DNA of 32,000 bases from Cuniculiplasma divulgatum (lineage in GTDB: Archaea; Thermoplasmatota; Thermoplasmata; Thermoplasmatales; Thermoplasmataceae). The translations under genes and the position numbers were made by a program. The stretch covers positions 570,001 to 602,000 of the forward strand of contig NZ_LT671858.1 of assembly GCF_900083515.1 (NCBI RefSeq). Reading direction: 5' to 3'. Shown here piece after piece: positions 16,124 to 30,812 of the stretch (position 1 is the stretch's first letter; each line of letters opens with the position of its first letter). A model generated the notes under the pieces. It did no database searches. It saw nothing but the letters and a program-made list of their open reading frames with translations, and was not told the DNA's origin.

Positions 16124-16322
16124 AGAATTACATTGTTTTAAGTTTTTTAAGGTTTCTCAAACATATGCAACTGTTTGGAATGTTTAGAATTTATAAACAG
16201 GTTTCTTTATCACGCCTAAAAAATCCCACTTCAACTGACAGAACAGAGTCACTGTTAAATAGTTTTATCTAATTCAGAACCTACGGGGACATGGGGTAAT
16301 CAGGCATCCTATTGGGCTCCAG

Positions 16323-16390
16323 TCAGGTTTTGATTAGAAACGGGTCAACTGATATGGTGATGATTGACTGGAACTATGAACCGGGAAGAG
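16323..16390 (+). ncRNA. tRNA-Trp intron with box C/D guide RNA architecture
   Basis: Box C-like tTGATTA 16330-16336, 12-nt spacer, box D' CTGA 16349-16352, 5-nt loop, box C' GTGATGA 16357-16363, 12-nt spacer, box D-like ATGA 16376-16379. The spacers are complementary to the anticodon-loop and position-39 regions of the exons. Confidence 0.65.
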
Positions 16391-16404
16391 ACCCGCAGAT
16401 CTGG

Positions 16405-16425
16405 GTTCAAATCCCAGTGTCCCCA
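16405..16425 (+). repeat. attL: 21-bp direct repeat (3' end of tRNA-Trp)
   Basis: GTTCAAATCCCAGTGTCCCCA is identical to 24576-24596. Confidence 0.9.
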
Positions 16426-17204: not shown

Positions 17205-17320
17205 TATGAATGTATTATGAGAGCATTAATAATAAAGGTTTGTCTTAATAAAAGTCGAGGTAAGATTAAAGATTTTTAAATAGTGCGTCACTAATAGTTG
17301 CTAAGTCTACTCATGATTAT

Positions 17321-17482: not shown

Positions 17483-17493
17483 AAATGATCGGA

Positions 17494-17649: not shown

Positions 17650-17685
17650 ATTTACATAATCATTCAAACCTATATAAAAGTGTTC

Positions 17686-17736
17686 ATATCCTTACATTTC
17701 CGTAAGTTTTATATCCTTATAATTCCTTACGGAAAT
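17686..17736. promoter_or_regulatory. Operator-like repeats in the divergent promoter region of the element
   Basis: Perfect 11-bp inverted repeat ATTTCCGTAAG (17696-17706) / CTTACGGAAAT (17726-17736) with a 19-nt spacer. It is interleaved with three direct copies of ATATCCTTAY-like 10-mers (17686-17695, 17711-17720, 17721-17730). Confidence 0.5.
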
Positions 17737-17762
17737 ATACAGAAATATAAGGTGATATTAAA

Positions 17763-17927
17763 ATGACAACGATTAACCTGGCCCCTCTCAAGCAGAAAGC
17801 GTTAAACTTCCCTGAACCCGTAAAGTCCTTAATCTTGAGTGAACCTGACATGATCGATGCACAAGACTTCATCTCTAAACTGGGCACTTGGCTGAAACTC
17901 GTCAACATGGAGGAAAGGCAAAAATGA
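17763..17927 (+). CDS. Small hypothetical protein (54 aa) translationally coupled to PrimPol
   Basis: ATG 17763 to TGA 17925-17927, MTTINLAPLKQKALNFPEP.... The stop overlaps the ATG at 17924 of the next gene (ATGA). Confidence 0.4.
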   Translation: MTTINLAPLKQKALNFPEPVKSLILSEPDMIDAQDFISKLGTWLKLVNMEERQK

Positions 17928-18931: not shown

Positions 18932-20900
18932 TACAAAGAAACTGAAAACGATAGCACAGGGCACCAATGATAATGGAAGCAAAGAAGAACGATTTGACCT
19001 TATCGCTGAACTTGGGGGAGGGTACTTTTCCACACCCCAAGGTTTAGCCTTTTACTTCGGAAACAATGCTCCGCCAATTGAGATAGAAAGCCCACAATTT
19101 GAAGGGTTGATGAGTGAGATAAAGTATAATCGCTTGGGACGTCCAGCAAACGGTGAGGAAATATTAGCAGTCAGGAGGCTAACCCGTTATTACGCAAGCA
19201 AGAACGTGAGAGAAGTTGGAGTAAGAGTAGCAAGGATGGATGATGCAATCATCTACGATCCGGTGTGCGAAGATGGGAAGATCTTCAAAATTAATAGCGA
19301 TGGTATTGTCCTAACTGCGTTGGAAAAACCTGCAACTGTCAGATTTGTGGGAATGCTTCACGCTGAGGTTATGGATGGGATTAGAGAAGATTACCTCAGC
19401 CTCATTGACACATGGCGTATGGATGATAATACAAAATTGCTTTCTATTGGTCTTGATTTTTCCAGGTTTATCCCAGGCATTCCTCATGCTATTGAAGTGG
19501 TCACTGGGGACCATGGCGCCGGAAAAACAAGCTATACAGTGGCGAAAAGGGAATTAATTGATCCTAATGGAGCCCCCACACAGGCACTAAAGTTTGATGA
19601 ACGGGACATAAGCATATCTGCACTTCATCAAGGCATACTGGCATTTGATAATGTGAATACCACCATGCCTGACTACATTTCAGATGTCATTTGTAGAATT
19701 TCAACTGGCCAGGGGTTCAGGACGCGTGAACTTTACTCTAACACGTCAGAGGTCATTTTAAAGCTCAAAAAGCCGATTTTGATGAATGGAATCAATATAC
19801 CAGGATACAAGCCGGACTTTCTAGATCGTAGCGTCCCAATACTGCTAAGACCCATATTTGGGGAAGGCCGACTGAGCGAAAGTGAGATAAAACAGAGAGT
19901 CGAAAACCTATTGCCCAGTGCCAGAGGGTATCTGCTTTCTGTTGTTCCTAAGGCCATTCAACTGTACCCAGAAGTTGAAAAGGAATTGATGGGCAAACTC
20001 CCCAGAATGGCTGATTTCGTTATTTGGGCTGAATGCGGATTGAGGGCAATGGGATTTCCCTCAGGTGCATTTTTTAACGCATATCAACAGGTAAAAAAAC
20101 GCGAGACTGAGGACCTGGCAAAGGAAAACACCCTGATCATCGCCATACAGGAATTAATGTCAGATCGTGAAGAATGGAGAGGAACCAGCTCAGAGCTCCT
20201 AGATAATCTGAACCCATATATAACGGAGAATAAGCGTAGATTTGATTCTAAGCTTCTCCCGAAGGATCCGAAGAGACTTGGAAGATTGATAAAAGAGCAC
20301 GAACTAGTACTTCGGGAGCTAGGATATGAAGTAGCGACCCTCACGGATGGAAATCGAACAAAAGTGATCAGGCGGATCGGGTCGGTAGATAAAGTTAATG
20401 TCAGTGACGTAAGAACTGAACCAGACATCACAAAATACGGGCTCCCCGGAGCTGACATTAACAAAAACACGACTTTAGAAAAAATATCTAATGTCAGTGA
20501 AGTGGGGCTCGTAAAAATCGGGTTCCAAAGTAAATCTGACAACACTGACATTAGAAATATGTACGAAGCCTATGAAGAAGACGGAAAAAAGAGTGGTGAA
20601 CACGCGCCAGATATTGTAAATTCCGCATTCACGAGTGAAGACTCCGATCAAATGTCGTTCACAAAGGAACAGGGAGACGAGTCTGTAAGAATTGTACTAC
20701 AACAGGGGGTTCACTTAAACGCAGCTGATACCGGTGTTTCTATTTATGGGGACAAGTTCAACATAGCAGTAATAGGTGCATACTACCGTCAGAACACTGA
20801 AACCGTGAATCGAATAATGGAAGATCTCGGTTTCAAAAAAGGAAATACTGGAAGTCTTCTAAATGTGTTTTTTAGCAGGACATTAAAAGGAGGTGATTAA
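18906..20900 (+). CDS. P-loop NTPase, probable replicative (SF3/D5-like) helicase partner of PrimPol
   Basis: Walker A GDHGAGKTS, Walker B-like GILAFDNVN. 664 aa, overlapping the PrimPol 3' end. ATG 18915 behind the ggaaggtga RBS is an alternative start. Confidence 0.7.
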   Translation: MKNMTAKTDTKKLKTIAQGTNDNGSKEERFDLIAELGGGYFSTPQGLAFYFGNNAPPIEIESPQFEGLMSEIKYNRLGRPANGEEILAVRRLTRYYASKNVREVGVRVARMDDAIIYDPVCEDGKIFKINSDGIVLTALEKPATVRFVGMLHAEVMDGIREDYLSLIDTWRMDDNTKLLSIGLDFSRFIPGIPHAIEVVTGDHGAGKTSYTVAKRELIDPNGAPTQALKFDERDISISALHQGILAFDNVNTTMPDYISDVICRISTGQGFRTRELYSNTSEVILKLKKPILMNGINIPGYKPDFLDRSVPILLRPIFGEGRLSESEIKQRVENLLPSARGYLLSVVPKAIQLYPEVEKELMGKLPRMADFVIWAECGLRAMGFPSGAFFNAYQQVKKRETEDLAKENTLIIAIQELMSDREEWRGTSSELLDNLNPYITENKRRFDSKLLPKDPKRLGRLIKEHELVLRELGYEVATLTDGNRTKVIRRIGSVDKVNVSDVRTEPDITKYGLPGADINKNTTLEKISNVSEVGLVKIGFQSKSDNTDIRNMYEAYEEDGKKSGEHAPDIVNSAFTSEDSDQMSFTKEQGDESVRIVLQQGVHLNAADTGVSIYGDKFNIAVIGAYYRQNTETVNRIMEDLGFKKGNTGSLLNVFFSRTLKGGD

Positions 20901-20902
20901 AA

Positions 20903-21184
20903 ATGATCCTCCATGGAAATCTTAAAGGTCTTCAAGGATCAACAGCAAGTGTAAATTACATAGGGCCTAAAAACGCCCCTTACAAACTTACTGGAGAGTT
21001 TCAGAGAATAGCATTCAACAGGATTATACTTGATGGTTTGAAATCAGGAAGAACCCATAGAATACCACTGGAGAGGGTGATCTCCATCGCTGAGCTTGAC
21101 TCAGATTTTAAGATCCTAAATTTTTTACAGGATGGCTCAGGGGCAGCCTTAAGCCTCAAGGAGGAAGTGAACAGAAATGAATGA
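20903..21184 (+). CDS. Hypothetical protein
   Basis: 93-aa ORF starting 2 nt after the helicase stop behind the aaaggaggtga RBS. No motif recognised. Confidence 0.55.
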   Translation: MILHGNLKGLQGSTASVNYIGPKNAPYKLTGEFQRIAFNRIILDGLKSGRTHRIPLERVISIAELDSDFKILNFLQDGSGAALSLKEEVNRNE

Positions 21185-21476
21185 ACAGAATTGGGAAATG
21201 AAAAAAGGAAAAGGAAAGAGAATAGTGATTTGCTCAGTGCATGATAAGCGCTCAGGAGAGATCGGATCACTGGTCATAGATCGTGACGTGAAGCTCCTTC
21301 ACTGTGAACTCTGTAATGACTTTATGTGCGGGCACATAAAATATGCAATGTCCATAGAGAAAGTAAGGAAGGATCTTTTAGATGCCATAAACAGGATCTG
21401 TGACCGGTGCAGCAGTTACAACCTTCCAGGAACGAATTACTGCGATCAGTGTGGTGCAAAGCTGGAGGTGGGTTGA
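21177..21476 (+). CDS. Hypothetical protein with Cys-rich zinc-ribbon motifs
   Basis: CSVH...CELCNDFMCGH and C-terminal CDRCSSYNLPGTNYCDQCGAKL (CxxC-x10-CxxC). Overlaps the upstream stop. Confidence 0.6.
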   Translation: MNEQNWEMKKGKGKRIVICSVHDKRSGEIGSLVIDRDVKLLHCELCNDFMCGHIKYAMSIEKVRKDLLDAINRICDRCSSYNLPGTNYCDQCGAKLEVG

Positions 21477-21477
21477 A

Positions 21478-21612
21478 TTGAAAATAAGTGAAAATGGTGC
21501 AGAAACCATAAGAAGAATTTTGAACAACCCACTCACTTATTGTTTTGTATGGATCCTTGTTTGGGCTGGAAAAAAGATATTCAAGGATGAGGTGAATTAC
21601 AATGAAATCTGA
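21478..21612 (+). CDS. Possible small membrane protein (44 aa, TTG start)
   Basis: TTG 21478 directly after the upstream stop. KISENGAETIRRILNNPLTYCFVWILVWAGKKIF has one hydrophobic segment. Weak support. Confidence 0.25.
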   Translation: MKISENGAETIRRILNNPLTYCFVWILVWAGKKIFKDEVNYNEI

Positions 21613-21654
21613 TATCGTACCTAATCGGGATATCATCAGAAATGGAGGGAGATC

Positions 21655-21894
21655 ATGATCAAAGCAGAAACAAACCCTCAGGGAAAGCAGGGCAACGAAG
21701 CGAGGAATTACAGCAATCCTGAACCGTTTAACACTTCCCAGATCGGGAGGTCAATTACAGTAACGCTAACCAATGGAAGAATAGAGGCTGGCATTCTCAA
21801 ATCTCTTGGTGCTTACATGATAAGCATTAAGATGCCTAATGGAAGGGAACTGATCATCAACAAGGGTCATATTATAACGGTGAGTATCCTATGA
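21655..21894 (+). CDS. Small protein with an Sm/SH3-like beta-barrel pattern
   Basis: RBS ggaggga. ITVTLTNGRIEAGILKSLGAYMISIKMPNGRELIINKGHIITVSI resembles Sm1 (V-x-L-x-x-G-x-x-x-x-G-x-L) and Sm2 (I-x-x-G-x-x-I-x-x-I). Confidence 0.5.
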   Translation: MIKAETNPQGKQGNEARNYSNPEPFNTSQIGRSITVTLTNGRIEAGILKSLGAYMISIKMPNGRELIINKGHIITVSIL

Positions 21895-22361
21895 TAAGAC
21901 ACAAAGACATTAATCAACCATCACTGTTCGACTTTTCAGGAAAGAATGAAAGGGGAGGATATGATAACATTACCCATGATACTTCAATTCTGACAGCACG
22001 GATAAAACAACCAAAGTTAAGCAATGGAACCGAGAAGATGGAGATACTATCCCTTCAAGCAATGAAATACTGTTCAAGGTTCGAATCATGCTCAGCTCCT
22101 AAGTGTCCTTTAGACATTCTCATCAAGGCACGATCTGAAGTGGACGGAGATCCAAAATGCGAGATGGCCAGGGCAACCCGCCATAAGCACTGGGAAGCCA
22201 TGCCAGAGAATCTCAGGAATGAGCTACCATTTCAGGGATATTTCGAAGTGGAATTGAAGAGGATGAACGCAGCAAGGGAAAGATGGGAATCACTTCCCGA
22301 TGACCAGAAGGTAATTATTAAGGAGAGACTGAGGAATCTCAGGGAGGGAAGATCGCAATGA
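21891..22361 (+). CDS. Hypothetical protein (Cys cluster CSRFESCSAPKCP)
   Basis: 156-aa ORF with ATGA overlap at both ends, indicating operon context. Confidence 0.55.
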   Translation: MIRHKDINQPSLFDFSGKNERGGYDNITHDTSILTARIKQPKLSNGTEKMEILSLQAMKYCSRFESCSAPKCPLDILIKARSEVDGDPKCEMARATRHKHWEAMPENLRNELPFQGYFEVELKRMNAARERWESLPDDQKVIIKERLRNLREGRSQ

Positions 22362-22576
22362 CGCAGTCAAGCTATAAAATAGGAGCTCACAAAATTAAGA
22401 TATTCCGGCAGTGCAGAAGTGGATCTCATGATACGTGCCCAGTGTCATTAATGGTGGAACCCTCACTATCAGGACCGGAAGGAGAAAGGATACCTTCAGG
22501 TCGCCATGTTAGGATATATTGCGAATGCCCATGCCATGCTAAGGTCCCTGAATCTCCCAAGAACCGGTCGAAATGA
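22358..22576 (+). CDS. Small Cys/His-rich putative zinc-binding protein
   Basis: 72 aa with C-x6-H-x2-C ... CECPCH. Confidence 0.45.
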   Translation: MTQSSYKIGAHKIKIFRQCRSGSHDTCPVSLMVEPSLSGPEGERIPSGRHVRIYCECPCHAKVPESPKNRSK

Positions 22577-22646
22577 AAACTTTATTTTCCCGATTTCTTG
22601 TCGATTTATCGATTCTCATTTCCATACTTAATTAGATGTGGTATAA

Positions 22647-22910
22647 TTGAATGTAACTGAACTAAAGATAAAGGTCAATGCCAGCTTTGACAGCACTGAT
22701 CTGCTGATACTGGATATATTTCGCCGGATCCCTTCCAGGTCCTTGAGGGTACATACTATTGTTGACATCTTGGAATATGAAGAAGTAATGCTGAACTCAT
22801 GGGAGCTCCGAGATCGATTAAGAAGGCTTGTAATACTTGGCCTTGTGGTCCGGCACCAGGGAAAGAGAAGCGATCGTTATTCGATTTCACATGAGTATAT
22901 GGATCCATGA
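22647..22910 (+). CDS. Winged-helix DNA-binding protein
   Basis: 87 aa, TTG start. ILDIFRRIPSRSLRVHTIVDIL...LRRLVILGLVVRHQGKRSDRYSI fits helix-turn-helix plus wing. The gene is flanked by repeat-rich DNA. Confidence 0.55.
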   Translation: MNVTELKIKVNASFDSTDLLILDIFRRIPSRSLRVHTIVDILEYEEVMLNSWELRDRLRRLVILGLVVRHQGKRSDRYSISHEYMDP

Positions 22911-23043
22911 AAGACCCCCTTCCCCCCTTACTTAAGTTAATGTCCTCATTGTCATTTTCGTGTTTAAATTTCTGGACCGTCCCAAAGTTTTTAGGAAAAA
23001 TCTCCGCATCTTCATGGCTATGCATTCCCATTTGTTTATGCCT

Positions 23044-23074
23044 TTATGATGAAATGTAAAAAATGATTCAAATT
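23044..23074 (+). repeat. 31-bp direct repeat, copy 1
   Basis: TTATGATGAAATGTAAAAAATGATTCAAATT is identical to 23135-23165. Confidence 0.85.
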
Positions 23075-23134
23075 TTCATTTTCGATTTCTTCACCATCTT
23101 TTTCATGTCCATTCTCTCTTAATTATATACGCTC

Positions 23135-23165
23135 TTATGATGAAATGTAAAAAATGATTCAAATT
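23135..23165 (+). repeat. 31-bp direct repeat, copy 2
   Basis: Identical to 23044-23074, 91 bp periodicity, just downstream of the integrase stop. Confidence 0.85.
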
Positions 23166-23195
23166 GATTTTTTCGGTTAGTTAGTTGACCGGTTG

Positions 23196-24524
23196 TCAGG
23201 AAGGCAACTTGACGACTGCCTTATCTCCCTTGGGATATATCTGCACGAGTTCCCATCCCTTGTTGAGATAGATTTCGAGTTCTCTTTCAGGTATGGTCTT
23301 ATGCCGGTTCCCATTGTTGAGGATCTCCGCCTTCTTATCCCTGAATATCTCTTTCAATCTCTCCTGGAGGTCATCTAAATCGAGTGCCATAAGGTCTTCT
23401 TTCTCCTTGTCAGAAAGGTTCGTTCCGTAAGCAGTTTCCAGAATCATTATTGCAGTCTCCTTCATTGTATTGGTAGTTATCTTAGCTACATCCTCTTCTT
23501 TGATTCCGTGGTCCTCAGTCTCAAGGAACTTAAGGCATTTGACGTAACTTGACCTCATATCCTCTATTGTGTCGGAAGTAAGCATTTTGTCAAGAGTATA
23601 TCTATGTTCCATGGATCCGGAATGCCCCATCATAAAAACTCTGTAGTCGTGCATGATAAATCCTTTTGATTCCGCGAGCATCAGTTGGGTGTCAAAATAG
23701 CTTCTAAGTATATATGGCCTATTTTCGAATCCGGCCGATCTTATACTCTGTCTTATCAGATCACCTATATTTATAGTGGTTATGTGCTTTTTTCTAAGAG
23801 CTAATTTTGAGGGTACAATTATAGGCGATTCTGCCATGAGAACCTCGCCTTCAATCATTCTTTTCTGTAAATAGGCAGACAAATAGCCAGTTCCTTCGGG
23901 GCCGATGAATGTAATGTACGGCTTGCGGGTTTTGCTAAGTTCAGGTCTTACCTTGACCATTGTTACTTCATTTTCGAAGGAAACTGTCTTAGAATCAACG
24001 TCAACGTGCATCTCGGGAAGATCTCTAATTTCCAGTCCTCCCTTTCCCATGTAGTCGCCTAATGCCTCCAGCCTTAGGCCAGAGAATGCAATTAGCGCGC
24101 ATGCAGTTTTTGATCTTGCATCGCCAACTGAAAATATTTTCTTTAATGATTGCTGAGAAGGGATACTCTCATTTCCATACCTGGTATTAACTCCCGCGTT
24201 TTTGATTTTTAGTTTTCTTATTAGTTTTCTGCCATTGAATGAAAGCCACGATTTAACGGCCTTAACGCTTGAATTTATATAATTGGGAGAAAGTCCCCTA
24301 TCCTCCTCGGTGCCAATGAAGTCCGTCAGCAGATTGGTTAAGGATTCATCTGATAGTTCCAGAAGATCCATGGGAGTTTTACTGACCTCGTTGCAGAAGG
24401 AACCGAGTCTTCTCAAAATTACATCAGCAGTTAGCTGCGACCCTCTTGCGCAGTCTCTAAACCATCTTTCGACTTGTTTTTCCTTCAAGAGATCAATATA
24501 TTTTTTCCCCCTTCCAGTCACCAT
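23196..24524 (-). CDS. int: Tyrosine recombinase / integrase (intact, non-split type)
   Basis: Box I AFSGLRLEAL, box II-like YILRSYFDTQL ... MMGHSGSMEHRYT. The 5' end lies 52 nt from attR. Confidence 0.88.
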   Translation of the reverse strand: MVTGRGKKYIDLLKEKQVERWFRDCARGSQLTADVILRRLGSFCNEVSKTPMDLLELSDESLTNLLTDFIGTEEDRGLSPNYINSSVKAVKSWLSFNGRKLIRKLKIKNAGVNTRYGNESIPSQQSLKKIFSVGDARSKTACALIAFSGLRLEALGDYMGKGGLEIRDLPEMHVDVDSKTVSFENEVTMVKVRPELSKTRKPYITFIGPEGTGYLSAYLQKRMIEGEVLMAESPIIVPSKLALRKKHITTINIGDLIRQSIRSAGFENRPYILRSYFDTQLMLAESKGFIMHDYRVFMMGHSGSMEHRYTLDKMLTSDTIEDMRSSYVKCLKFLETEDHGIKEEDVAKITTNTMKETAIMILETAYGTNLSDKEKEDLMALDLDDLQERLKEIFRDKKAEILNNGNRHKTIPERELEIYLNKGWELVQIYPKGDKAVVKLPS

Positions 24525-24575
24525 GACAAAGAGAATGTAAGATACTATTTAAGTTCTATCCTTAAACCTAATACA

Positions 24576-24596
24576 GTTCAAATCCCAGTGTCCCCA
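24576..24596 (+). repeat. attR: 21-bp direct repeat (copy of the tRNA-Trp 3' end)
   Basis: GTTCAAATCCCAGTGTCCCCA is identical to 16405-16425. Flanking bases diverge on both sides. Confidence 0.9.
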
Positions 24597-24853
24597 TCTC
24601 AGACGAATACTCTGACTTTGTTATTTTTTTTAACTTCTAAACCGCACATATTACTGCCTCCTAAAATTCGGGAAAAAACCGGGGTTCCCGCGCCCATGCG
24701 TAAAGCTTTAATGTCACTACCCAGAATATTATCATAGTAAATGAATGTGTTTTTAGACTCCATTACCTCTCAATTTATTTTTACCTCAGATTACGAATTG
24801 ATAATCATAAATGATAGTATGTATTAATATGCTCCATACTTATTAATTACTAA

Positions 24854-25372
24854 TTGTCAATCAAGAAGTCAGGCTACGAGGATGAAATTTTAAAATTCAT
24901 CTATACAAATTACCAAGACGTAGAGATTCCAATGACTAAACTTCAAGATATTATAACTTCATATTATACTGTAACTAGCTCAGCGGGTTCATTATATGAA
25001 AGCGGGTTGGTCAATAAACGAGAGGTTGTCTCTGGAAGAAAAACGATAATGATCTCTTTGACTAAAAAAGGAAGAGAAGTTGCAGAGCAACTCAAAAGAG
25101 CTGAGGCAATTTCACAAGGCAGGAAGCTCTCATCCACAGAAAGGTACGCTGTAATTCTATATCTATACCGAAACGGATCAAAGAATCTGAAGGAAATCAA
25201 TGAAGATCTTCCAGGATCAACTGAAATTTTAAGGGAGCTTGAAAAACTGAATGTTGTAAAGCAGGAAATCAAAAGTTCAAAATATCCTCAGGAAACAACG
25301 TTGAGTTTGACTGAGAAGGGAATGGAGATTGGATTAAGATTTGAGGAATTGGAGAGGATGATGGAAGAATGA
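24854..25372 (+). CDS. Transcription regulator with two winged-helix modules
   Basis: TTG start. EILKFIYTNYQ...MISLTKKGREVAEQLKRAE, then ILYLYRNGSKNLKEI...TLSLTEKGMEIGLRFEELERMMEE. An AGTATG/CATACT inverted pair and duplicated TATTAAT (24816-24849) sit just upstream. Confidence 0.6.
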   Translation: MSIKKSGYEDEILKFIYTNYQDVEIPMTKLQDIITSYYTVTSSAGSLYESGLVNKREVVSGRKTIMISLTKKGREVAEQLKRAEAISQGRKLSSTERYAVILYLYRNGSKNLKEINEDLPGSTEILRELEKLNVVKQEIKSSKYPQETTLSLTEKGMEIGLRFEELERMMEE

Positions 25373-25433
25373 ACGAAAGTGTGGATAATTCAAAGAGCAA
25401 TGATTTCCAGAATAGGTTAGGGGTGTATATGTA

Positions 25434-26399
25434 ATGTTGGTAGTTAACTCATACGTCCTTGTAGGAGAAGATTCTTTCAATCCAACATTGAAAATAGTAA
25501 TAGAAGTAGAAATTAAAGTTGGGTCGGAAGTTTTAATCAATGCGTTCGGAGACTTGAATTATCATGGAAAAAAAATTGGAAGATTGGAACCTTCAACTCA
25601 AAACGTTTTTGGTTTCCCCCTCTTCGCAATAAAATCCGAACTAAAGGATCAATCAGTTAAATATAATGTGGGTTTTGAATGCAAATTAGATAAGAATGTC
25701 TTAAAATACATAAGCGATGGAAGAAAAGCGGAAAAGAATGGAGACGTAGTATTTATAGCCGAAATAAGGCTAATTTATCTTGAAAATCGAGCCTACATAA
25801 TAGAATCCAGAGTTCAAACAAATTTAGCAACGAACAACACCGCAAACATGTTATCAACTCTAAATGGTACTTCATACTTGGAAATGAGAACATACAACCC
25901 ACAAATTCCAATGACAATTAAATCATCGGATTGGATAAATGATTTTGCACCAAAACTAGGATTGGGGGAATATGAAATAATAGAAATCCCTAGATTAAAT
26001 GCTGTAAATATAAAGGAAAAATTCAGCAATTCACTTTCCGCCCTTGAGGTATCCAGGAAATACCTGTACTCTTTAAACAACGGCTCTGCAATGTCATCAC
26101 TCCGGAATTCTTTAAGGGAATTCAACGAGGCATTGAAAAATCTTGGATATAGAGACGAGAATGGAAAAAATGTGGATTACGGTAAAATATTCGATAGAAA
26201 CAAAAACAATGAAATTTTAGTTGAAACATTGCAGAAAAATCTATATAGTTCAAGCTCCAGAGGAGAAGAACCCGCAGCAGCACATATGGGTAATTCGGTT
26301 GAAGGATATGAAATCGAATCAATGATATTCATGACCTATTCATTGTACAAGATGGTTTTCGAAAAGCTTCGAGAGAAAGAGGAATCAGAGGGTGATTGA
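25434..26399 (+). CDS. Uncharacterised 321-aa protein (beta-rich N-terminal part, helical C-terminal part)
   Basis: Long ORF 61 nt after the regulator. No family recognised. The C-terminal SRGEEPAAAHMGN followed by an amphipathic helix is vaguely Abi_C/HEPN-like, but with R-x7-H spacing. Confidence 0.6.
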   Translation: MLVVNSYVLVGEDSFNPTLKIVIEVEIKVGSEVLINAFGDLNYHGKKIGRLEPSTQNVFGFPLFAIKSELKDQSVKYNVGFECKLDKNVLKYISDGRKAEKNGDVVFIAEIRLIYLENRAYIIESRVQTNLATNNTANMLSTLNGTSYLEMRTYNPQIPMTIKSSDWINDFAPKLGLGEYEIIEIPRLNAVNIKEKFSNSLSALEVSRKYLYSLNNGSAMSSLRNSLREFNEALKNLGYRDENGKNVDYGKIFDRNKNNEILVETLQKNLYSSSSRGEEPAAAHMGNSVEGYEIESMIFMTYSLYKMVFEKLREKEESEGD

Positions 26400-26403
26400 T
26401 AAT

Positions 26404-26490
26404 TATGAGACGACAAGCATAAGTTTGTCTGAAAAGGGAATGGAGATAGGAGAGATTCTAAGTAAGGTAGAGGGAATGATGGAGGAATGA
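26404..26490 (+). pseudogene. Remnant of the C-terminal wing/helix of a second wHTH regulator copy
   Basis: Translates to YETTSISLSEKGMEIGEILSKVEGMMEE*, parallel to ETTLSLTEKGMEIGLRFEELERMMEE* at the end of 24854-25372. The only possible in-frame start is GTG 26392. Confidence 0.5.
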
Positions 26491-26496
26491 TAAAAA

Positions 26497-27447
26497 ATGA
26501 AAATTTATGAATCGAGTTTCACAGAGAAAAAGCTAGAAGAAATGTATAACTTGATAAAAGAGACTGATGGATCAAAAGTACAGCTTTATGCGATTTCAGT
26601 AGAGAAAAATAAAGAAAAAGAGAAGATTTGGACCGTTAATACACTTTCAATAACAAAATCTCTCGGGGATGAAATGATTGAATCTGCAAAGGGGTATCTT
26701 ATCCAAAAAAGCCAACTCAGGATAAAGGATTTCGATTTGAAGAGCGATTTGTCGCCTGAATATTTGATTGGAAAGTTAGCTGACGATCAAGTTCCTGTCT
26801 TAAATAAAATAATTAGTGAAATGAAGAGAAGTGATAATTCTCCAATTTCATATGGAGAGTTGTCAAAATCAACTCATCTTATCGGTTTTGCGATAGAAAT
26901 AGGTGAAAAAATAACTATTTTCAATAAAGTAACAAAAGCCAGATTGTTAAATCCTAAAAAATACTTATATCTTGTAGAATCCCGTACAGGGGAGCTCACA
27001 CATCTCAAAGAAAACAATTTATTATCTATACCGAATAGCATTGACGCAATTCTATATGAGGATCCTCTGTACATTTTGAACGTCAATCATTTTCTTTCTC
27101 TGTTTGATTATGGGGAGGCTTTTACAAAATTTATAGATAATGCAAAAACCAGTTTGGCCAACATAGTGGATGATGTTCAGTATGTGATTGATGAGACCTC
27201 CCCACATATAATGGAGTTCAAGCGCCTGGCTTCTGCTTGTGCTGGTTATGTAGATAGAATAGTAAGAGAAAATACTAACCTTGAGCCTATTGCAAAATCA
27301 TATAACCTTGAAATATCATTTTCCAATGGAAAGATCTCAGTAAAGAATTCAAAGCTTAAGGATATCCTCTCATTATTAAACGGACAGGCTGTGAGAGACG
27401 AACTATTCAAAGAAAAATACCTTGCTCGTGAAAAGGAGAAGGTTTGA
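26497..27447 (+). CDS. 316-aa protein, tentatively KwaB/DUF4868-like (Kiwa defence component)
   Basis: Length and sequence pattern (LIGFAIEIGEKITIFNKVTKARLL...LSIPNSIDAILYEDPLYILNVNHFLSLFDY...ISFSNGKISVKNSKLKDILSLLNGQAVRDEL) resemble my recollection of DUF4868 proteins. Not verified by any search. Confidence 0.45.
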   Translation: MKIYESSFTEKKLEEMYNLIKETDGSKVQLYAISVEKNKEKEKIWTVNTLSITKSLGDEMIESAKGYLIQKSQLRIKDFDLKSDLSPEYLIGKLADDQVPVLNKIISEMKRSDNSPISYGELSKSTHLIGFAIEIGEKITIFNKVTKARLLNPKKYLYLVESRTGELTHLKENNLLSIPNSIDAILYEDPLYILNVNHFLSLFDYGEAFTKFIDNAKTSLANIVDDVQYVIDETSPHIMEFKRLASACAGYVDRIVRENTNLEPIAKSYNLEISFSNGKISVKNSKLKDILSLLNGQAVRDELFKEKYLAREKEKV

Positions 27448-27467
27448 ACTCACTTCAATCACTTTAT

Positions 27468-28037
27468 TTAATTAGAATAGGTACGATATCCAAAAAGGAA
27501 GAAATCATCGATTATTAAGTATGCTTTAAATTGTATATTTGATTGTACTTTTTCTCTTGAAATAATTAAAATCTGTCCACCACCGCTTGTTTTTACTTTA
27601 AAGAGGAAAGGGAATTTAATTCGAACAGTTATAATTTGATAGATTAAGCTCTCTCTCAGAAAAATAGTAAAGAATAGGATACTGATGATAGGTATTAGAA
27701 GTAACACAATTAGTTCAGTAAGATAAGAAGAAGAAAATGCTGTAACATCTAAAGTCATTACTGGTAAAACCGTAATCACAATTGTCAGGATCAATGGCCA
27801 CATCTCTGAAGCTCCTTCTCTTTCTGTCAATTCAACTTTGAATAATTTTGGATTGAATTCTTTCTTATCGTTTATGAATTTTATAAAATACACATTAATC
27901 ACTATAGATAGTGCGGTTAAAATGGTAAAAACTGCTATTAGCGAATTTTCTTTTGTTAAAAATGATACGATCATTGAGGCAATAAAAATCGGTAAAGATA
28001 CTCCAACTGAGAGGATTAAATTTAATTTAAATCCCAC
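27468..28037 (-). CDS. 4-TM membrane protein with a ~60-aa soluble beta-rich C-terminal domain
   Basis: 189 aa. Hydrophobic segments at about residues 5-27, 32-54, 79-96 and 107-128. Convergent with the KwaB-like gene, stops 20 nt apart. Confidence 0.65.
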   Translation of the reverse strand: MGFKLNLILSVGVSLPIFIASMIVSFLTKENSLIAVFTILTALSIVINVYFIKFINDKKEFNPKLFKVELTEREGASEMWPLILTIVITVLPVMTLDVTAFSSSYLTELIVLLLIPIISILFFTIFLRESLIYQIITVRIKFPFLFKVKTSGGGQILIISREKVQSNIQFKAYLIIDDFFLFGYRTYSN

Positions 28038-28121
28038 TTTATCACACCATGTATATAGATGTAAACTTAGACTTTATCTTTTTCATTTTAATACTTATTT
28101 ATATATCTTCTCATTTTCAAC

Positions 28122-28328
28122 CTATAATAACTGCATTTCTTCCAGCAGCTCTTTTGCATTCTCATTAGCTATCCTGGATATCACATAATTGAATTTCTCC
28201 TCTAACATTGCTATAAGTTCCTCCTTTGTTTGTGCCTCTACTGAGAACTTCTTGAATATGTCATAATTCACATCAAGCTGATCCTTCCTTCTTGAGTTGT
28301 ATTCCTTGTTGAACGGATTTATCTTCAT
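28122..28328 (-). CDS. Small helical protein (68 aa), upstream of the 4-TM gene
   Basis: ORF on the same strand, 84 nt upstream of 28037. No motif recognised. Confidence 0.45.
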   Translation of the reverse strand: MKINPFNKEYNSRRKDQLDVNYDIFKKFSVEAQTKEELIAMLEEKFNYVISRIANENAKELLEEMQLL

Positions 28329-28605
28329 ACATACTGAGTAATTTAATGAGTTCTAAAATTTTATTGTTCAGGGCAACGAACACATCATTTATAATATATA
28401 TTAACACTCAACGTTTTTAATATCTATCTACATATTAATCTTATAAATCTCATGGGCTCAGATAATGGAACGTTCAGTTTCAATAACGATAGATGCTCTT
28501 GTTAATTGACTTATTGAGGCCTTCAAACATCCATATTCTTGGATGTCTTGGTTCCTAATATTTAAGCTACGGAAGATTAATATAAAAGCCACATCATATG
28601 TCAAG

Positions 28606-29199
28606 ATGGTAGAAGAAAAAGCAGTATCGTGTATCTTTCCGCATTCAGATATGGAATTTGGCGTAACAACAGATAGAAAATGGACTGAGAAAGAGAAAAA
28701 GAGTTTCAATAGGGGGGCGCTCAGGGGATTTTTATCGGATATACTTCCTGAAAGGGAATATGCTTATCATTATGCAATACACTATAAGATGACAGACAAA
28801 AACGAAGACAAGATTAAGGCAACATGGGAAGATCATAATAAAATGCTTTTTCCGATACCAAATCATTTAATGGCAAAGGGAACCAGAGTGTATTTCTTTT
28901 ATAAGAATGAGATTGTTGGAGATGCTATCATAGAAAAAGTGATCTATAATGATCATGAATCTGAACTTTCAGATGAATGGGATCCAGAGATTTACCCAAT
29001 TATAGTAAAATTCAAAAAAGGTAGTGTAAGGGTATTTCCGAATAATTCCATATCTGAAAAGGTTATGAAAAGGGTACTGACAGATAAAACTAACAAAACT
29101 CTCCCTATAGGTTATCCTGTTCTGACTGACATGGAAGATCAAAAACTACAAAAAGAGATAGCAAATGTTGTGAAATCTTACTCAATGGCATTCCTGTAA
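28606..29199 (+). CDS. Hypothetical protein with a PUA-like (ASCH/EVE-like) beta-barrel pattern
   Basis: GTRVYFFYKNEIVGDAIIEKV...YPIIVKFKKGSVRVFPN resembles ASCH/EVE cores. I chose ATG 28606 (MVEEK) over the track start 28543, whose first 21 codons look non-protein-like. Confidence 0.45.
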   Translation: MVEEKAVSCIFPHSDMEFGVTTDRKWTEKEKKSFNRGALRGFLSDILPEREYAYHYAIHYKMTDKNEDKIKATWEDHNKMLFPIPNHLMAKGTRVYFFYKNEIVGDAIIEKVIYNDHESELSDEWDPEIYPIIVKFKKGSVRVFPNNSISEKVMKRVLTDKTNKTLPIGYPVLTDMEDQKLQKEIANVVKSYSMAFL

Positions 29200-29486
29200 T
29201 TTCATCAACAGGATGATAGTCAGCATTTATTATACCATCTAAAGCACATTTTCTCAATTTATTTTATAAGAGCCTATATGTTCTTATTTCTAATGGATTT
29301 AAGTTCTCCATCATCTCTTTTGTTAGATTAAGTCTCATTAATCAGACTTTAGAAGAAGCCTTAGCTATTTCTAAAAATTTGTATTACAAATAGGTGTGCA
29401 ATACGCTAAATTCTTGTAATGACTTATGGAAAAGAATGATAGAAACTGTTATTATATCACTGACTATGGCTTTCTGTGGAAAAATT

Positions 29487-29665: not shown

Positions 29666-30541
29666 TCAATTTTCATCTAGTTTCACCTCAACTTCTTTCT
29701 TCTCGAATCTTTCCCTGAATGCTGAATCATTCAGGAACTTCCTCCTGAACTCCCTTAGGGGGAGATAATCAATGGATGAATGCAGCCTGCATTCATTGTA
29801 ATCTGTGAATGCCTTTTCTATCTCTATGGAAGCATCATTAAAGTTCCTAAACTCGTTTGGCCATATGTAATCTGTCTTGATTGAATTGTGGAACGACTCA
29901 ATGTCTCCATTGTCCTCAGGAGTGTGTTTCTGTATATATTCCAGCTTTATCCCCAGTAATTTCATGGCACTCCTGAACTCCTTCGAGATATACTGGGGAC
30001 CACTGTCTGTTCTGAGCACCAGGCCTTCTGGTACTGATCCATTGAATGCCAGTAGAACAGCATTCTCCACAGAACGTATGGCATCCCTTGCCATACATGA
30101 CCTGGAATAACGGTATCCCTGCCATTCCTTGGTGAAACAGTCCTTGATGCACATCAGATAGGTCATTCCCGATTCAGTGGGAATGTAAGTGATGTCAGTT
30201 TGCCAGAGCTGATCCGGACCATGAGGACGGAAGAGATTCCTGGCCTTTGTTCTACCCCTGTGCTTAAATGCAGGGAGGTTCAGGTTGTTATCCTTAAGAA
30301 CCTTCCTGACGGTCTTCTGGTTCACTTCTGTACCAGAATTACGAAGAACTGCCCACACTCTCCTGTATCCGTATGTTGTCCTTTCTGATGCAATATACCT
30401 GACCTTCTCTTTGATGGCTGGATCAAGCCTCTGAATGTATCTCTTCACAGGCTTGTAATAATATCCGGACAGTGAGATTCCGGATATTCTTGATATCTCC
30501 CTGAGAGATATCTGATCCTTCAGATCATCAATAACCATCAT
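29666..30541 (-). CDS. IS3-family transposase OrfB (DDE/rve integrase core)
   Basis: WQTDITYI (first D), LRTDSGPQYIS (second D), PEDNGDIESFHNSIK (E). 291 aa. Confidence 0.9.
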   Translation of the reverse strand: MMVIDDLKDQISLREISRISGISLSGYYYKPVKRYIQRLDPAIKEKVRYIASERTTYGYRRVWAVLRNSGTEVNQKTVRKVLKDNNLNLPAFKHRGRTKARNLFRPHGPDQLWQTDITYIPTESGMTYLMCIKDCFTKEWQGYRYSRSCMARDAIRSVENAVLLAFNGSVPEGLVLRTDSGPQYISKEFRSAMKLLGIKLEYIQKHTPEDNGDIESFHNSIKTDYIWPNEFRNFNDASIEIEKAFTDYNECRLHSSIDYLPLREFRRKFLNDSAFRERFEKKEVEVKLDEN

Positions 30542-30542
30542 T

Positions 30543-30812
30543 TTATTCTCTTGATCGTTTTTTAAAAGTGTCTATGACCAGTGACTGATCTCCTATGATC
30601 TTCTTCAGATTCTCTATCTCATCGTCCCTTGAATCAGAATTCCTTCTCTGAGCCAGTGCTGTCTTACCTCCAAGTATGAACTGTTCCCTCCACTTGCTTA
30701 ACTGAACAGGATATATGCCATGCCTCCGGCATATTTCAGCCTGTGTCACATTGTCCGTAAAGGATTCCATAACTATCTGGAACTTCTCTTCAGCCGAATA
30801 TTTTGATTTCAT
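30543..30812 (-). CDS. IS3-family transposase OrfA (HTH, Transposase_8-like)
   Basis: YSAEEKFQIVMES...VTQAEICRRHGIYPVQLSKWREQF followed by a leucine-zipper-like tail. Its stop is 1 nt before the orfB ATG. Confidence 0.85.
   Translation of the reverse strand: MKSKYSAEEKFQIVMESFTDNVTQAEICRRHGIYPVQLSKWREQFILGGKTALAQRRNSDSRDDEIENLKKIIGDQSLVIDTFKKRSRE

What the first reader, a model, noticed from the sequence alone, without database searches (positions are those of the whole stretch)
24854..26490. Double-wHTH regulator plus uncharacterised 321-aa protein, followed by a remnant of a second regulator copy
The 172-aa regulator has two winged-helix modules, each ending in an SLTxKGxE wing. It is followed after 61 nt by a 321-aa protein with no family I can name. 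Directly after that gene, 26404-26490 encodes ...TTSISLSEKGMEIGEILSKVEGMMEE*, a clear paralog of the last ~26 residues of the regulator (ETTLSLTEKGMEIGLRFEELERMMEE*). This remnant ends 6 nt before the start of the KwaB-like gene. That points to two formerly independent regulator-plus-effector cassettes stacked head to tail, the second having lost most of its regulator. The 321-aa protein may therefore be a separate effector under wHTH control or a new partner of the KwaB-like gene. Its C-terminal SRGEEPAAAHMGN plus amphipathic helix is loosely Abi_C/HEPN-like, but the R-x7-H spacing lies outside the canonical Rx4-6H.
Basis: seen in the sequence. Interest (0 to 1): 0.7.

Follow-up and report, generated by a model that had tools for sequence, protein, structure and literature searches.

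The report
Archaeal defence-gene hotspot with recombination scar
In the acid-loving archaeon Cuniculiplasma divulgatum, a patchwork DNA-binding regulator marks a site where mobile elements swap virus-defence genes; the leftover regulator fragment is the scar of one such swap, and the unnamed 321-aa protein belongs to a large, unannotated, domain-shuffling family found in such sites.

Summary
A tandem-wHTH regulator (24854-25372) is followed by a 321-aa ORF (25434-26399), an ~84-nt copy of a regulator 3' end (26407-26490) and a KwaB gene (26497-27447).

The fragment is not a copy of the neighbouring regulator. It carries a different "tail" allele, found intact on regulators elsewhere.

The regulator is a mosaic. 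Its 3' half is 92-97% identical in DNA between loci whose 5' halves and downstream genes are unrelated. Together with a conserved 68-aa gene (28122-28328, minus strand) it brackets variable cargo: Kiwa, UvrD+nuclease+TGT, a GHKL ATPase or a PKD-like protein. Some of these loci also carry an integrase.

The window therefore holds two stacked cargo modules: the 321-aa gene, and KwaB with a convergent four-TM KwaA-like gene. The fragment is the recombination scar between them.

The 321-aa protein belongs to an unannotated family of at least 744 clusters. It has a variable beta-sandwich, an invariant motif and interchangeable four-helix bundles. It usually lies 5' of varied defence operons and assorts independently of them. 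The proposed R-x7-H motif is not conserved, so HEPN remains an unproven lead. The protein's function is unknown; I rate it a candidate defence or sensor module.

The parts
24854..25372 (+). Tandem winged-helix (HxlR/MarR-like) regulator, 172 aa; left border gene of the hotspot. It is a mosaic of a variable N-terminal wHTH, a conserved second wHTH and a variable 16-aa tail (type T1: MEIGLRFEELERMMEE).
   Evidence: Pfam HxlR 30.3 bits; PHROG regulator hit; 85 homologous clusters; mosaic seen in alignments A3 and by codon analysis.
25106..25330 (.). Conserved DNA block inside the regulator gene (second wHTH); inferred homology anchor for recombination.
   Evidence: 92-97% nt identity to L012, L013, L031 and L034, whose 5' halves are 27-50% identical and whose cargo differs. 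Only 3-15 synonymous codon differences in 71 codons, 3-8 if pairs with L013 are left out.
25434..26399 (+). 321-aa member of a large unannotated family (called FAM here): N-terminal LEA_2/WHy-like beta-sandwich (1-~160), invariant motif SDWINDFAPKLGLGEYEIIEIP (165-186), C-terminal four-helix bundle (~190-319). First cargo module.
26407..26490 (+). Relic of the 3' end of a second regulator allele (tail type T3: MEIGEILSKVEGMMEE*); recombination scar. It lies inside a 32-aa ORF (26392-26490) whose GTG start overlaps the stop codon of the 321-aa gene. Its last codons supply a GGAGG motif 10 nt before the KwaB ATG.
   Evidence: The same scar is frameshifted in L001. The matching intact tail is seen in P0050/P0058/P0061/P0066.
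26497..27447 (+). KwaB-like protein (DUF4868), 316 aa; second cargo module.
   Evidence: Pfam PF16162 1.7e-13; PADLOC KwaB models up to full length; PHROG 11123 8.2e-13.
27468..28037 (-). 189-aa membrane protein, convergent with KwaB; KwaA-like by position, size and topology only.
   Evidence: Four predicted TM helices (7-25, 34-52, 82-100, 109-127) plus a loop and a C-terminal tail, matching the KwaA architecture in PMC11785009. L012-14 have the same layout with a Pfam KwaA (PF28043) 192-aa protein. No sequence-level KwaA hit.
28113..28362 (-). Right border of the hotspot: conserved 68-aa gene (28122-28328, cluster C3) and its flanks.
   Evidence: 83-87% nt identity to L012, L013, L031 and L034; cluster C3 in all-against-all BLASTP.
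16285..16425 (+). Intron-containing tRNA gene, an integration target. In strains without the 8.1-kb insert it lies about 430 nt upstream of the regulator.
   Evidence: Rfam tRNA 41.4 bits; 21-bp direct repeat at 16405-16425 and 24576-24596; empty site in L024-29.

Best explanation
Window 24854-28362 is a cargo hotspot of a family of mobile elements found in Thermoplasmatales and neighbouring acid-mine archaea; an integrase accompanies part of the shared small-ORF backbone in L031 (the L005 integrase sits beside a different small-ORF set). The hotspot now sits beside a tRNA integration site in the C. divulgatum chromosome. Its left border is a tandem-wHTH regulator gene and its right border is a 68-aa gene on the opposite strand. 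Different elements carry different, mostly defence-type, genes between these borders. The 3' half of the regulator gene is kept nearly identical in DNA between otherwise unrelated elements. I infer that it serves as the crossover point that reshuffles the upstream backbone and N-terminal wHTH against the regulator tail and downstream cargo. In this genome two cargo modules were stacked. Module 1 is the T1 tail, a 61-nt spacer and the 321-aa gene. Module 2 is KwaB plus a convergent four-TM KwaA-like gene, a Kiwa-type system. The ~84-nt T3-type regulator tail between them is what remains of the regulator that once headed module 2 or its predecessor. No oligo-T terminator lies in either intergenic spacer (the only T5 run between the regulator start and the KwaB stop is inside the 321-aa ORF), so I infer that regulator, 321-aa gene, scar and KwaB are one transcript under autoregulation by the wHTH protein. 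The scar supplies the KwaB ribosome-binding site. The 321-aa protein is an autonomous, modular cargo protein, most likely a defence or sensor module. Its N-terminal beta-sandwich would be the exchangeable recognition domain and its four-helix bundle the exchangeable output or oligomerisation domain. It is not a dedicated Kiwa subunit. Shown here: the anatomy, the mosaicism, the borders, the variable cargo, the scar's origin and the domain shuffling. Inferred: the recombination mechanism, co-transcription, regulation and any defence role of the 321-aa protein.
For: Borders and variable cargo: the regulator (cluster C1) and the 68-aa gene (C3) flank different genes in the window, L012/13, L031 and L034. 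Backbone small ORFs are shared among L012/13, L031 and L034, and an integrase (C6) accompanies them in L031. Mosaic regulator: the block at about nt 250-470 is 92-97% identical, while 5' halves are 27-50% identical. Synonymous sites are conserved too: 3-15 synonymous differences in 71 codons (3-8 without the L013 pairs), against 16-34 synonymous and 14-57 non-synonymous in the N-half of the same mosaic pairs. L012 and L031 are about 96% identical through codon ~157, then differ in tail and cargo. Scar origin: the window remnant is 88% identical over 67 nt to the 3' end of the intact L031 regulator. L001 has the same scar, frameshifted, before different cargo. P0015 is a truncated family member fused to a T2-type tail. 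T1-tail linkage: all four T1-tailed regulators with readable downstream genes (window, L001, L012, L013; three N-terminal variants) are followed by a family gene. Independence of the 321-aa family from its neighbours: the L001 and L016 cargo genes are 54-63% identical but their family genes only 33%; L015 and L016 family genes are 88% identical with different cargo. C-domain variants A, B and C show no match to cargo type. Foreign origin: GC is 0.29-0.36 against 0.39-0.45 in the flanks; a tRNA att site is adjacent. Kiwa. No T5+ run in the intergenic spacers between 24854 and 27447.
Against: No intact regulator + KwaB (or T3 regulator + UvrD) cassette was recovered, so the ancestor of module 2 is inferred. 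One T1-tailed regulator (L030, a 1-kb contig) is not followed by a family gene. The T3 tail precedes three different cargos (KwaB, UvrD, PKD-like), so breakpoints also fall exactly at the regulator stop codon. Simple homologous recombination inside the conserved block does not explain that. In C. divulgatum no element backbone or integrase belonging to this block is left, so 'hotspot of a mobile element' rests on the metagenomic relatives. The sample is small (about 17 distinct contexts) and biased to a few acid-mine data sets. No transcription, DNA-binding or phenotype data exist. The family gene lies upstream of, and co-directional with, its neighbours in 13 of 14 readable contexts. That fits a functional link better than random stacking does.
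Confidence: 0.62

Rival explanations
1. The regulator and the 321-aa protein together form a portable control head. The wHTH represses the operon. The 321-aa protein senses infection through its variable beta-sandwich and relieves repression, or licenses whichever defence system lies downstream. The logic would resemble CapH/CapP or BrxR/CapW modules upstream of many bacterial defence systems.
For: The family gene lies at the 5' side of, and co-directional with, diverse defence operons in 13 of 14 readable contexts: Kiwa x2, UvrD+PDDEXK+TGT x2, GHKL ATPase, type I R-M, methylases, Trypsin_2. A small HxlR-type wHTH precedes it in the window, L001, L005-7, L012-14, L039 and L040. The downstream systems are complete on their own. 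The family gene and the cargo assort independently, as a generic head would.
Against: Many members have no wHTH neighbour (L017, L020-22). In L040 the family gene is the last gene of the operon, after HEPN and a BsaWI-like enzyme. It has no protease, WYL or nucleotide-binding signature. The scar shows that at least here the adjacency to KwaB arose by recombination, not as an evolved unit.
Confidence: 0.2
2. The 321-aa protein is a third, archaea-specific component of Kiwa that works with KwaB and KwaA.
For: The order family gene - KwaB - convergent four-TM/KwaA occurs in two lineages whose KwaB proteins are barely alignable (20% over 65 aa) and whose family genes have different C-domains. No terminator lies between the genes.
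Against: Most family members sit next to non-Kiwa systems. The nearly identical C-terminal half and scar (90% nt) in L001 precede UvrD instead. Characterised Kiwa is a two-protein supercomplex (PMC11785009). A regulator relic separates the genes here.
Confidence: 0.08
3. The fragment is not a dead scar but a retained functional element. It could be a short coupling ORF or leader that links translation of the 321-aa gene to KwaB, or a recombination site for cassette capture.
For: The 32-aa ORF is intact in all seven C. divulgatum genomes. Its GTG start overlaps the upstream TGA (GTGA), it ends 6 nt before the KwaB ATG, and it provides a GGAGG motif. Tail-like sequences occur at three independent junctions: window, L001 and P0015. 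Breakpoints fall on both sides of the tail.
Against: In L001 the ORF is frameshifted and stops 30 nt early. The C. divulgatum genomes are nearly identical (0-3 SNPs per gene), so their agreement says nothing about selection. No remnant lies between the family gene and KwaB in L012-14. No recombinase is linked to the site.
Confidence: 0.12
4. Regulator + 321-aa protein is a toxin-antitoxin or abortive-infection pair: a wHTH antitoxin or repressor with a HEPN-like RNase toxin.
For: The two-gene wHTH + effector layout recurs. The C-domain is a four-helix bundle whose best PDB matches include HEPN proteins 4nqf, 8xeh, 1ufb and 2hsb. There is a weak RnlA-toxin_DBD hit, E = 0.005-0.02. HEPN genes (AbiV, HEPN) are neighbours in L015, L016 and L040.
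Against: The Rx4-6H motif is absent and the R-x7-H of this member is not conserved. Fold matches are not significant and are mixed with generic bundles. The conserved residues (R97, W167, E184, R224, D/E293) do not form a known HEPN catalytic pattern. Many members lack a wHTH partner.
Confidence: 0.15

Closest known systems
Defence hotspots of bacterial mobile elements (P2/P4 prophage hotspots, ICE/genomic-island and pipolin cargo sites; e.g. PMC10250203, PMC11551731, PMC12629846, seen only as search hits, otherwise from my own knowledge)
   Same: Two conserved flanking genes bracket rapidly exchanged, mostly defence-type cargo. The locus is linked to integrases and a tRNA attachment site. Several systems are stacked.
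   Different: The host is archaeal (Thermoplasmatales and acid-mine community). The left border is a mosaic tandem-wHTH regulator whose own 3' half is the crossover zone. Scars are regulator tails. Neither the element family nor the border genes are annotated anywhere I could search.
Kiwa (KwaA + KwaB), PMC11785009
   Same: A KwaB/DUF4868 protein passes the Pfam and PADLOC models. The adjacent 189-aa protein has four TM helices plus a loop and C-terminal tail, like KwaA.
   Different: The genes are convergent rather than a kwaA-kwaB operon. The membrane protein has no detectable sequence similarity to KwaA models. An extra gene and a regulator lie upstream.
Gene 3'-end replacement by integrating elements (e14 and phage 21 in icd; tRNA 3'-end duplication). 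From my own knowledge; the tRNA case is also seen in this window.
   Same: An incoming segment brings its own version of the target gene's 3' end, and the displaced original 3' end survives as a short pseudo-fragment at the far side of the insert. The layout here is: regulator with T1 tail, 321-aa gene, then displaced T3 tail.
   Different: The ~1.1-kb segment carries no integrase and no defined att core was shown. Homologous or illegitimate recombination explains it equally well.
Mosaic immunity regions of lambdoid phages (repressor/operator modules exchanged by recombination). From my own knowledge.
   Same: A regulator gene beside divergently transcribed backbone genes is assembled from interchangeable segments that travel with their flanks.
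   Different: The regulator is a tandem wHTH in one chain rather than an HTH repressor. No lysogeny function has been shown.
CapH/CapP and BrxR/CapW regulator modules upstream of diverse defence systems. From my own knowledge.
   Same: An HTH protein, with or without a partner, recurs at the head of unrelated defence operons.
   Different: The 321-aa protein has no metallopeptidase or WYL domain. No evidence for a regulatory role was obtained.
HEPN superfamily / LEA_2 (WHy)-like beta-sandwiches
   Same: The C-domain is an up-down four-helix bundle with HEPN structures among the top hits. The N-domain matches Af_0446 (3but, E = 1.3e-4), the TMEM106B luminal domain (8b7d, 5.6e-4) and LEA14 (1xo8).
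   Different: There is no Rx4-6H motif and no significant HEPN score. This combination of sandwich, invariant SDW...GEY...E motif and bundle has no Pfam, NCBIfam, PADLOC or PHROG model.

Membership tests
Kiwa defence system | KwaB protein with a DUF4868 domain | tested here: met
   PF16162 51.5 bits (cutoff 26.3), residues 130-302. PADLOC KwaB models match at 1.9e-9, one of them over residues 13-316.
Kiwa defence system | Adjacent KwaA: integral membrane protein with four TM helices and a cytoplasmic beta-barrel formed by ICL1 and the C-terminus | tested here: inconclusive
   The 189-aa ORF has four predicted TM helices, a 29-aa loop and a ~60-aa tail (criteria from PMC11785009). It has no PADLOC or Pfam KwaA hit, only 3 homologs, and BLASTP against the L012 KwaA gives E = 0.4.
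Kiwa defence system | kwaA and kwaB in one co-directional operon | tested here: not met
   The genes are convergent, 20 nt apart. L012-14 show the same convergent layout with a Pfam-annotated KwaA.
HEPN superfamily (C-domain of the 321-aa protein) | Conserved Rx4-6H catalytic motif before the last helix | tested here: not met
   This member has R-x7-H. Across 66 diverse members, R occurs in 10/66 and H in 9/66 at those columns. P0010/P0011 lack the R, and variants B and C lack the motif.
HEPN superfamily (C-domain of the 321-aa protein) | Four-helix up-down bundle with significant similarity to HEPN structures or profiles | tested here: inconclusive
   The AF2 C-domain model has pTM 0.73. The best PDB hit is 4nqf HEPN at E = 0.19, TM 0.46-0.49, mixed with FAT, FliS and designed bundles. 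Pfam RnlA-toxin_DBD scores 15.5-17.6 bits against a cutoff of 27.
MarR/HxlR-type winged-helix regulators | Winged helix-turn-helix DNA-binding domain | tested here: met
   HxlR PF01638 30.3 bits (cutoff 20.8) for residues 99-169. The first half gives sub-threshold wHTH hits and PHROG 11046 at 4e-7. The wing repeat is visible in DNA.
MarR/HxlR-type winged-helix regulators | One wHTH per chain, acting as a homodimer | tested here: not met
   There are two wHTH modules in one 172-aa chain. Single-wHTH relatives of 88-94 aa precede family genes in L005-7, L039 and L040.
Mobile-element cargo (defence) hotspot | Conserved flanking genes with variable intervening genes across related elements | tested here: met
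   C1 and C3 flank four different cargo sets in the window, L012/13, L031 and L034; L001 has a fifth cargo after C1 but C3 was not seen in the DNA fetched.
Mobile-element cargo (defence) hotspot | Cargo enriched in defence systems | tested here: met
   Cargo includes Kiwa (window, L012-14), UvrD+PDDEXK+DUF6884+TGT (L001) and HATPase_c_3 + PAPS_reductase (L034). The PKD-like gene in L031 is of unknown role.
Mobile-element cargo (defence) hotspot | Residence in an integrative element (integrase, att site) | tested here: inconclusive
   An integrase (C6) accompanies the shared small-ORF backbone in L031; L005 also has a C6 integrase but a different small-ORF set. In the window only an adjacent tRNA att site and low GC remain, and the integrase nearby belongs to a separate 8.1-kb insert.
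Integron-like cassette array | Site-specific recombinase next to an attI-type site, with cassettes each ending in an attC-type site | tested here: not met
   No recombinase is adjacent to the regulator in the window. There is no further tail-like repeat after KwaB or the KwaA-like gene.
CapH/CapP- or BrxR/CapW-type defence regulators | Partner or fused metallopeptidase (CapP) or WYL domain | tested here: not met
   No Pfam or NCBIfam hit of that kind was found for the 321-aa protein or for 66 relatives.

The most novel reading that the evidence does not exclude
The 321-aa family, at least 744 clusters with no annotation, may be a new and widespread archaeal immune module. Its exchangeable beta-sandwich would recognise viral cues. 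Together with a small wHTH it would act as a portable sensor/controller at the head of otherwise unrelated defence operons (Kiwa, Dpd-like UvrD/TGT systems, R-M, GHKL ATPases). The last ~20 codons of the regulator might also double as a cassette-capture site.
Probability: 0.2. Interest if true: 0.85.

Novelty: new variant of a known kind. Interest (0 to 1): 0.62.

Why it matters
Defence hotspots in mobile elements have been the most productive source of new bacterial immune systems, and comparable sites are poorly described in archaea. This locus gives a usable handle. Two short conserved sequences, the regulator's second wHTH and the 68-aa gene, could be used to fish variable cargo out of Thermoplasmatales and acid-mine metagenomes. 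The locus also flags a large, entirely unannotated protein family whose modular architecture and neighbourhood make it a strong candidate for a new archaeal defence or sensor protein. It shows a convergent KwaB/KwaA arrangement in archaea. Finally, it documents, through datable scars, how defence modules are stacked by recombination inside a regulator gene.

Tried and rejected
1. Naming the 321-aa protein. Pfam, NCBIfam, PADLOC and PHROGs gave nothing for this member. Pfam gave nothing for 66 diverse relatives or for isolated C-domains. A PDB sequence-profile search gave nothing. Foldseek against viral structures gave nothing.

2. HEPN membership. The motif is not conserved and the fold match is not significant. 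I kept it only as a lead.

3. KwaA identity of the 189-aa protein by sequence. PADLOC, Pfam precomputed hits, BLASTP and a homolog search (3 hits, none annotated) all failed. Only topology supports it.

4. L015 as a third Kiwa case. Its 320-aa neighbour has no KwaB signal, so I did not count it.

5. Wider locus sampling. The metagenome scan with the regulator returned one 1-kb contig, after a first attempt failed because the alignment was too divergent. Viral-contig scans with the regulator and with the family returned nothing. The genome scan with the family returned only 9 loci. tblastn against annotated plasmids and phages returned nothing.

6. Strict tail-with-cargo coupling. Rejected, because the T3 tail precedes three different cargos and L030 has a T1 tail without a family gene.

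7. A shared operator motif (ATCATAAAT) upstream of regulators. It is suggestive but absent from L034, at variable positions, and in AT-rich DNA, so it is not claimed.

8. Selection on the 32-aa ORF. The seven C. divulgatum genomes are too similar to inform on this.

9. ARAGORN missed the tRNA; Rfam found it.
Full report
**1. Observation**

The window comes from Cuniculiplasma divulgatum. The 321-aa product is 100% identical to a protein of that species. The contig length of 1,938,699 bases suggests strain S5.

The reported ORFs are all present:
- a 172-aa regulator at 24854-25372;
- a 61-nt spacer;
- a 321-aa ORF at 25434-26399;
- a 32-aa ORF at 26392-26490;
- a 316-aa ORF at 26497-27447.

The regulator's second half passes Pfam HxlR (30.3 bits, cutoff 20.8). 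Its first half gives several sub-threshold wHTH hits and a PHROG regulator hit. The two SLTxKG wings are detectable even as a DNA repeat (family D1).

The remnant is well above chance:
- The nucleotide local score is 64, against 24.5 +/- 2.5 (maximum 40) in shuffles.
- BLASTP gives 15/25 identities, E = 2e-7.
- A regulator HMM hits 26407-26487.
- Two collinear direct repeats share the same 1118-nt spacing.

The 316-aa protein is a KwaB by Pfam and PADLOC.

**2. The remnant is a different regulator allele and is older than this gene arrangement**

An alignment of 34 regulators shows a mosaic with three parts:
- at least five unrelated-looking N-terminal wHTH variants;
- a nearly invariant second wHTH;
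- discrete variants of the last ~16 residues.

The intact window regulator ends in MEIGLRFEELERMMEE (tail type T1). The remnant reads MEIGEILSKVEGMMEE, the T3 type seen intact in P0050, P0058, P0061 and P0066. At DNA level the remnant is 88% identical over 67 nt to the 3' end of the intact L031 regulator.

A related species (L001-3) has the same regulator, a 59%-identical 322-aa gene and the same scar. There the scar is frameshifted and abuts a UvrD helicase, followed by PD-(D/E)XK, DUF6884 and TGT genes. The scar is therefore a decaying pseudogene fragment, and it is not tied to KwaB.

A third junction of the same kind is P0015. This is a truncated 321-family protein that runs into a T2-type tail...KGEKIGAKIEELEKVMEE.

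**3. The regulator borders a cargo hotspot**

In metagenomic relatives, the regulator lies next to a divergently oriented block of small ORFs. This block is shared among L012, L013, L031 and L034, and in L031 it is accompanied by an integrase of cluster C6. L005 also carries a C6 integrase, but beside a different set of small ORFs.

The genes after the regulator differ between loci:
- window: 321-family gene + KwaB + convergent four-TM gene;
- L012-14: 340-aa family gene + KwaB + convergent Pfam KwaA;
- L031-33: a PKD/Ig-like protein;
- L034: a 266-aa protein + HATPase_c_3 + PAPS reductase;
- L001: the Dpd-like UvrD/TGT set.

In the window, L012, L013, L031 and L034 the variable region ends at the same 68-aa gene on the minus strand. 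In the window this is 28122-28328, within a block (28113-28362) that is 83-87% identical in DNA to those loci.

Inside the regulator gene, nt ~250-470 are 92-97% identical between loci whose first halves are only 27-50% identical. Synonymous sites are conserved as well. The 71-codon block shows 3-15 synonymous differences (3-8 if the pairs with L013 are left out), against 16-34 synonymous and 14-57 non-synonymous differences in the N-terminal half of the same mosaic pairs. This points to recent exchange and not only to purifying selection.

L012 and L031 are ~96% identical up to the tail and then diverge together with their cargo.

In C. divulgatum the block has low GC, 0.29-0.36 against 0.39-0.45 in the flanks. 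In strains without the 8.1-kb insert it begins about 430 nt after an intron-containing tRNA gene that serves as an integration site.

**4. The 321-aa protein**

The word-index search found only 21 clusters. A profile search of 1.84 billion representatives found 744 clusters at E <= 1e-3 and 427 at E <= 1e-10. Members occur in Thermoplasmata, Woesearchaeota, Methanomicrobia, Bathyarchaeia and Asgard archaea. A few bacterial MAGs (Thermotogaceae, WOR-3) also carry it.

None of 66 diverse members matches any Pfam model.

The AF2 model (pLDDT 77.7) has three parts:
- An N-terminal beta-sandwich. Its best PDB matches are Af_0446 (3but, E = 1.3e-4), the TMEM106B luminal domain (8b7d) and LEA14 (1xo8), that is, LEA_2/WHy-like folds.
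- A short helix carrying the invariant motif.
- A C-terminal four-helix bundle (separate model, pTM 0.73).

HEPN structures head the fold hits for the bundle, but at E = 0.19-1.2 and mixed with generic bundles.

The conserved residues are W167 (66/66), R224 (65/66), R97 (63/66), E184 (61/66) and D/E293 (64/66).

The two domains assort independently, with the invariant motif as the junction:
- P0001 and P0002 are 37% identical in the N-domain and 99% in the C-domain.
- P0006 and P0012 are 91% and 19%.
- P0002 and P0015 are 94% and 17%.

**5. Neighbourhoods of the family**

I could read about 17 distinct contexts. In 12-13 of them, recognisable defence genes lie directly adjacent:
- KwaB/KwaA, twice;
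- UvrD + PD-(D/E)XK + DUF6884 + TGT, twice;
- GHKL ATPase;
- a type I R-M operon;
- N4/N6 methylases;
- a BsaWI-like endonuclease;
- AbiV-type and classical HEPN genes;
- a Trypsin_2 protease.

Integrases are frequent. A small HxlR-type wHTH (88-172 aa) heads the operon in six or seven contexts. The family gene is upstream of, and co-directional with, its neighbour in 13 of 14 readable cases.

Even so, the family gene and its cargo assort independently:
- The L001 and L016 cargo proteins are 54-63% identical, but the family proteins are only 33%.
- The L015 and L016 family proteins are 88% identical with different cargo.
- The two KwaB proteins next to family genes share only 20% identity over 65 residues.

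C-domain variants A, B and C do not track the cargo type.

**6. Kiwa**

Published Kiwa is a KwaA (four TM) + KwaB (DUF4868) supercomplex (PMC11785009). Here KwaB is secure.

The convergent 189-aa protein has four predicted TM helices, a loop and a C-terminal tail. It has no sequence-level link to KwaA. L012-14 show the same convergent layout with a Pfam-annotated KwaA. A KwaA-like role is therefore likely but not demonstrated.

**7. Interpretation**

The best-supported reading is as follows.
- The locus is a hotspot bounded by the mosaic regulator and the 68-aa gene.
- Recombination inside and at the end of the regulator gene exchanges and stacks cargo there.
- The window holds two stacked modules: the 321-aa gene linked to a T1 tail, and a Kiwa-like pair.
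- The T3 tail relic is the scar between them.

The only T5 run between the regulator start and the KwaB stop lies inside the 321-aa ORF. I therefore infer co-transcription from the regulator promoter. The scar supplies a GGAGG motif 10 nt before the KwaB ATG.

Three points weaken this reading:
- No intact regulator + KwaB cassette was found.
- Breakpoints also fall exactly at the regulator stop codon, since the T3 tail precedes three different cargos.
- The family gene's consistent 5' position hints at a functional link with whatever follows it.

The function of the 321-aa protein is unresolved. I favour an autonomous defence or sensor module. The regulator-partner reading comes second (0.2), and a dedicated Kiwa subunit is the least likely (0.08).

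**8. Novelty**

Cargo hotspots in mobile elements and Kiwa are both known. The following appear to be new:
- the archaeal element family;
- the use of a mosaic tandem-wHTH gene as the crossover zone;
- regulator-tail scars at module junctions;
- the convergent Kiwa layout;
- the large unannotated two-domain family.

Nothing similar was found in annotated plasmid, phage or viral collections. The original genome paper mentions only generic defence islands (PMC5155288).

Noticed in passing
window 16426-24575 (repeats at 16405-16425 and 24576-24596): An ~8.1-kb integrated element is flanked by a perfect 21-bp direct repeat (GTTCAAATCCCAGTGTCCCCA) that is the 3' end of a tRNA gene. It carries a Prim-Pol protein (17888-18931), a 664-aa ORF (18906-20900), small ORFs and a 442-aa ORF in the integrase position (23196-24524, no Pfam hit). 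It is absent from six other C. divulgatum genomes, which show the empty site.
   Followed up: partly
window 16285-16425: A tRNA gene has a 72-nt insertion in the anticodon loop. Rfam detects it (41.4 bits) but ARAGORN does not. The loop reads CU-CCA-GU and the intron contains GTGATGA...CTGA. It is probably tRNA-Trp with a box C/D guide RNA in its intron, as known in other Euryarchaeota; this was not verified.
   Followed up: partly
L001 6062-10969; L016 2328-7362: A four-gene set (UvrD helicase, PD-(D/E)XK nuclease, DUF6884/YaaD-like, TGT-like) is conserved at 54-63% identity in two Thermoplasmata lineages. It is always preceded by a 321-family gene. It resembles a Dpd-type 7-deazaguanine DNA-modification or restriction system.
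   Followed up: no
window 24804-24812; L012 2266; L031 4163; L013 2932 (reverse complement): The motif ATCATAAAT, part of the palindrome ATCATAAATGAT in the window, lies upstream of regulators that have different N-terminal wHTH variants. It could be the operator of the conserved second wHTH. It is absent from L034 and the DNA is AT-rich, so this is only a weak lead.
   Followed up: partly
P0081-P0095; L015 39-440; L016 416-1306: Regulator relatives of about 210 aa keep one wHTH (about 75% identical) joined to a zinc ribbon. AbiV-type HEPN proteins with or without a zinc ribbon sit directly upstream of the family gene in Woesearchaeota and Thermoplasmata MAGs.
   Followed up: no
window 29666-30812: An IS3-type insertion sequence (rve transposase of 291 aa plus an HTH_Tnp_1 ORF of 89 aa, minus strand) lies just beyond the hotspot. 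An unannotated 218-aa ORF (28543-29199) lies between it and the 68-aa border gene.
   Followed up: no
window 24800-29400: GC content is 0.29-0.36 across the regulator-cargo block, against 0.39-0.45 in the neighbouring chromosome and in the 8.1-kb element. This is consistent with foreign origin.
   Followed up: yes
L040/L041 3881-8573 (Asgardarchaeia MAG): The operon is: wHTH (94 aa), HEPN (316 aa), BsaWI-like endonuclease, then a 321-family gene overlapping the endonuclease gene by 4 nt. A convergent N4/N6 methylase and a 68-aa ORF follow. This is the only context found where the family gene is last in the operon rather than first.
   Followed up: no
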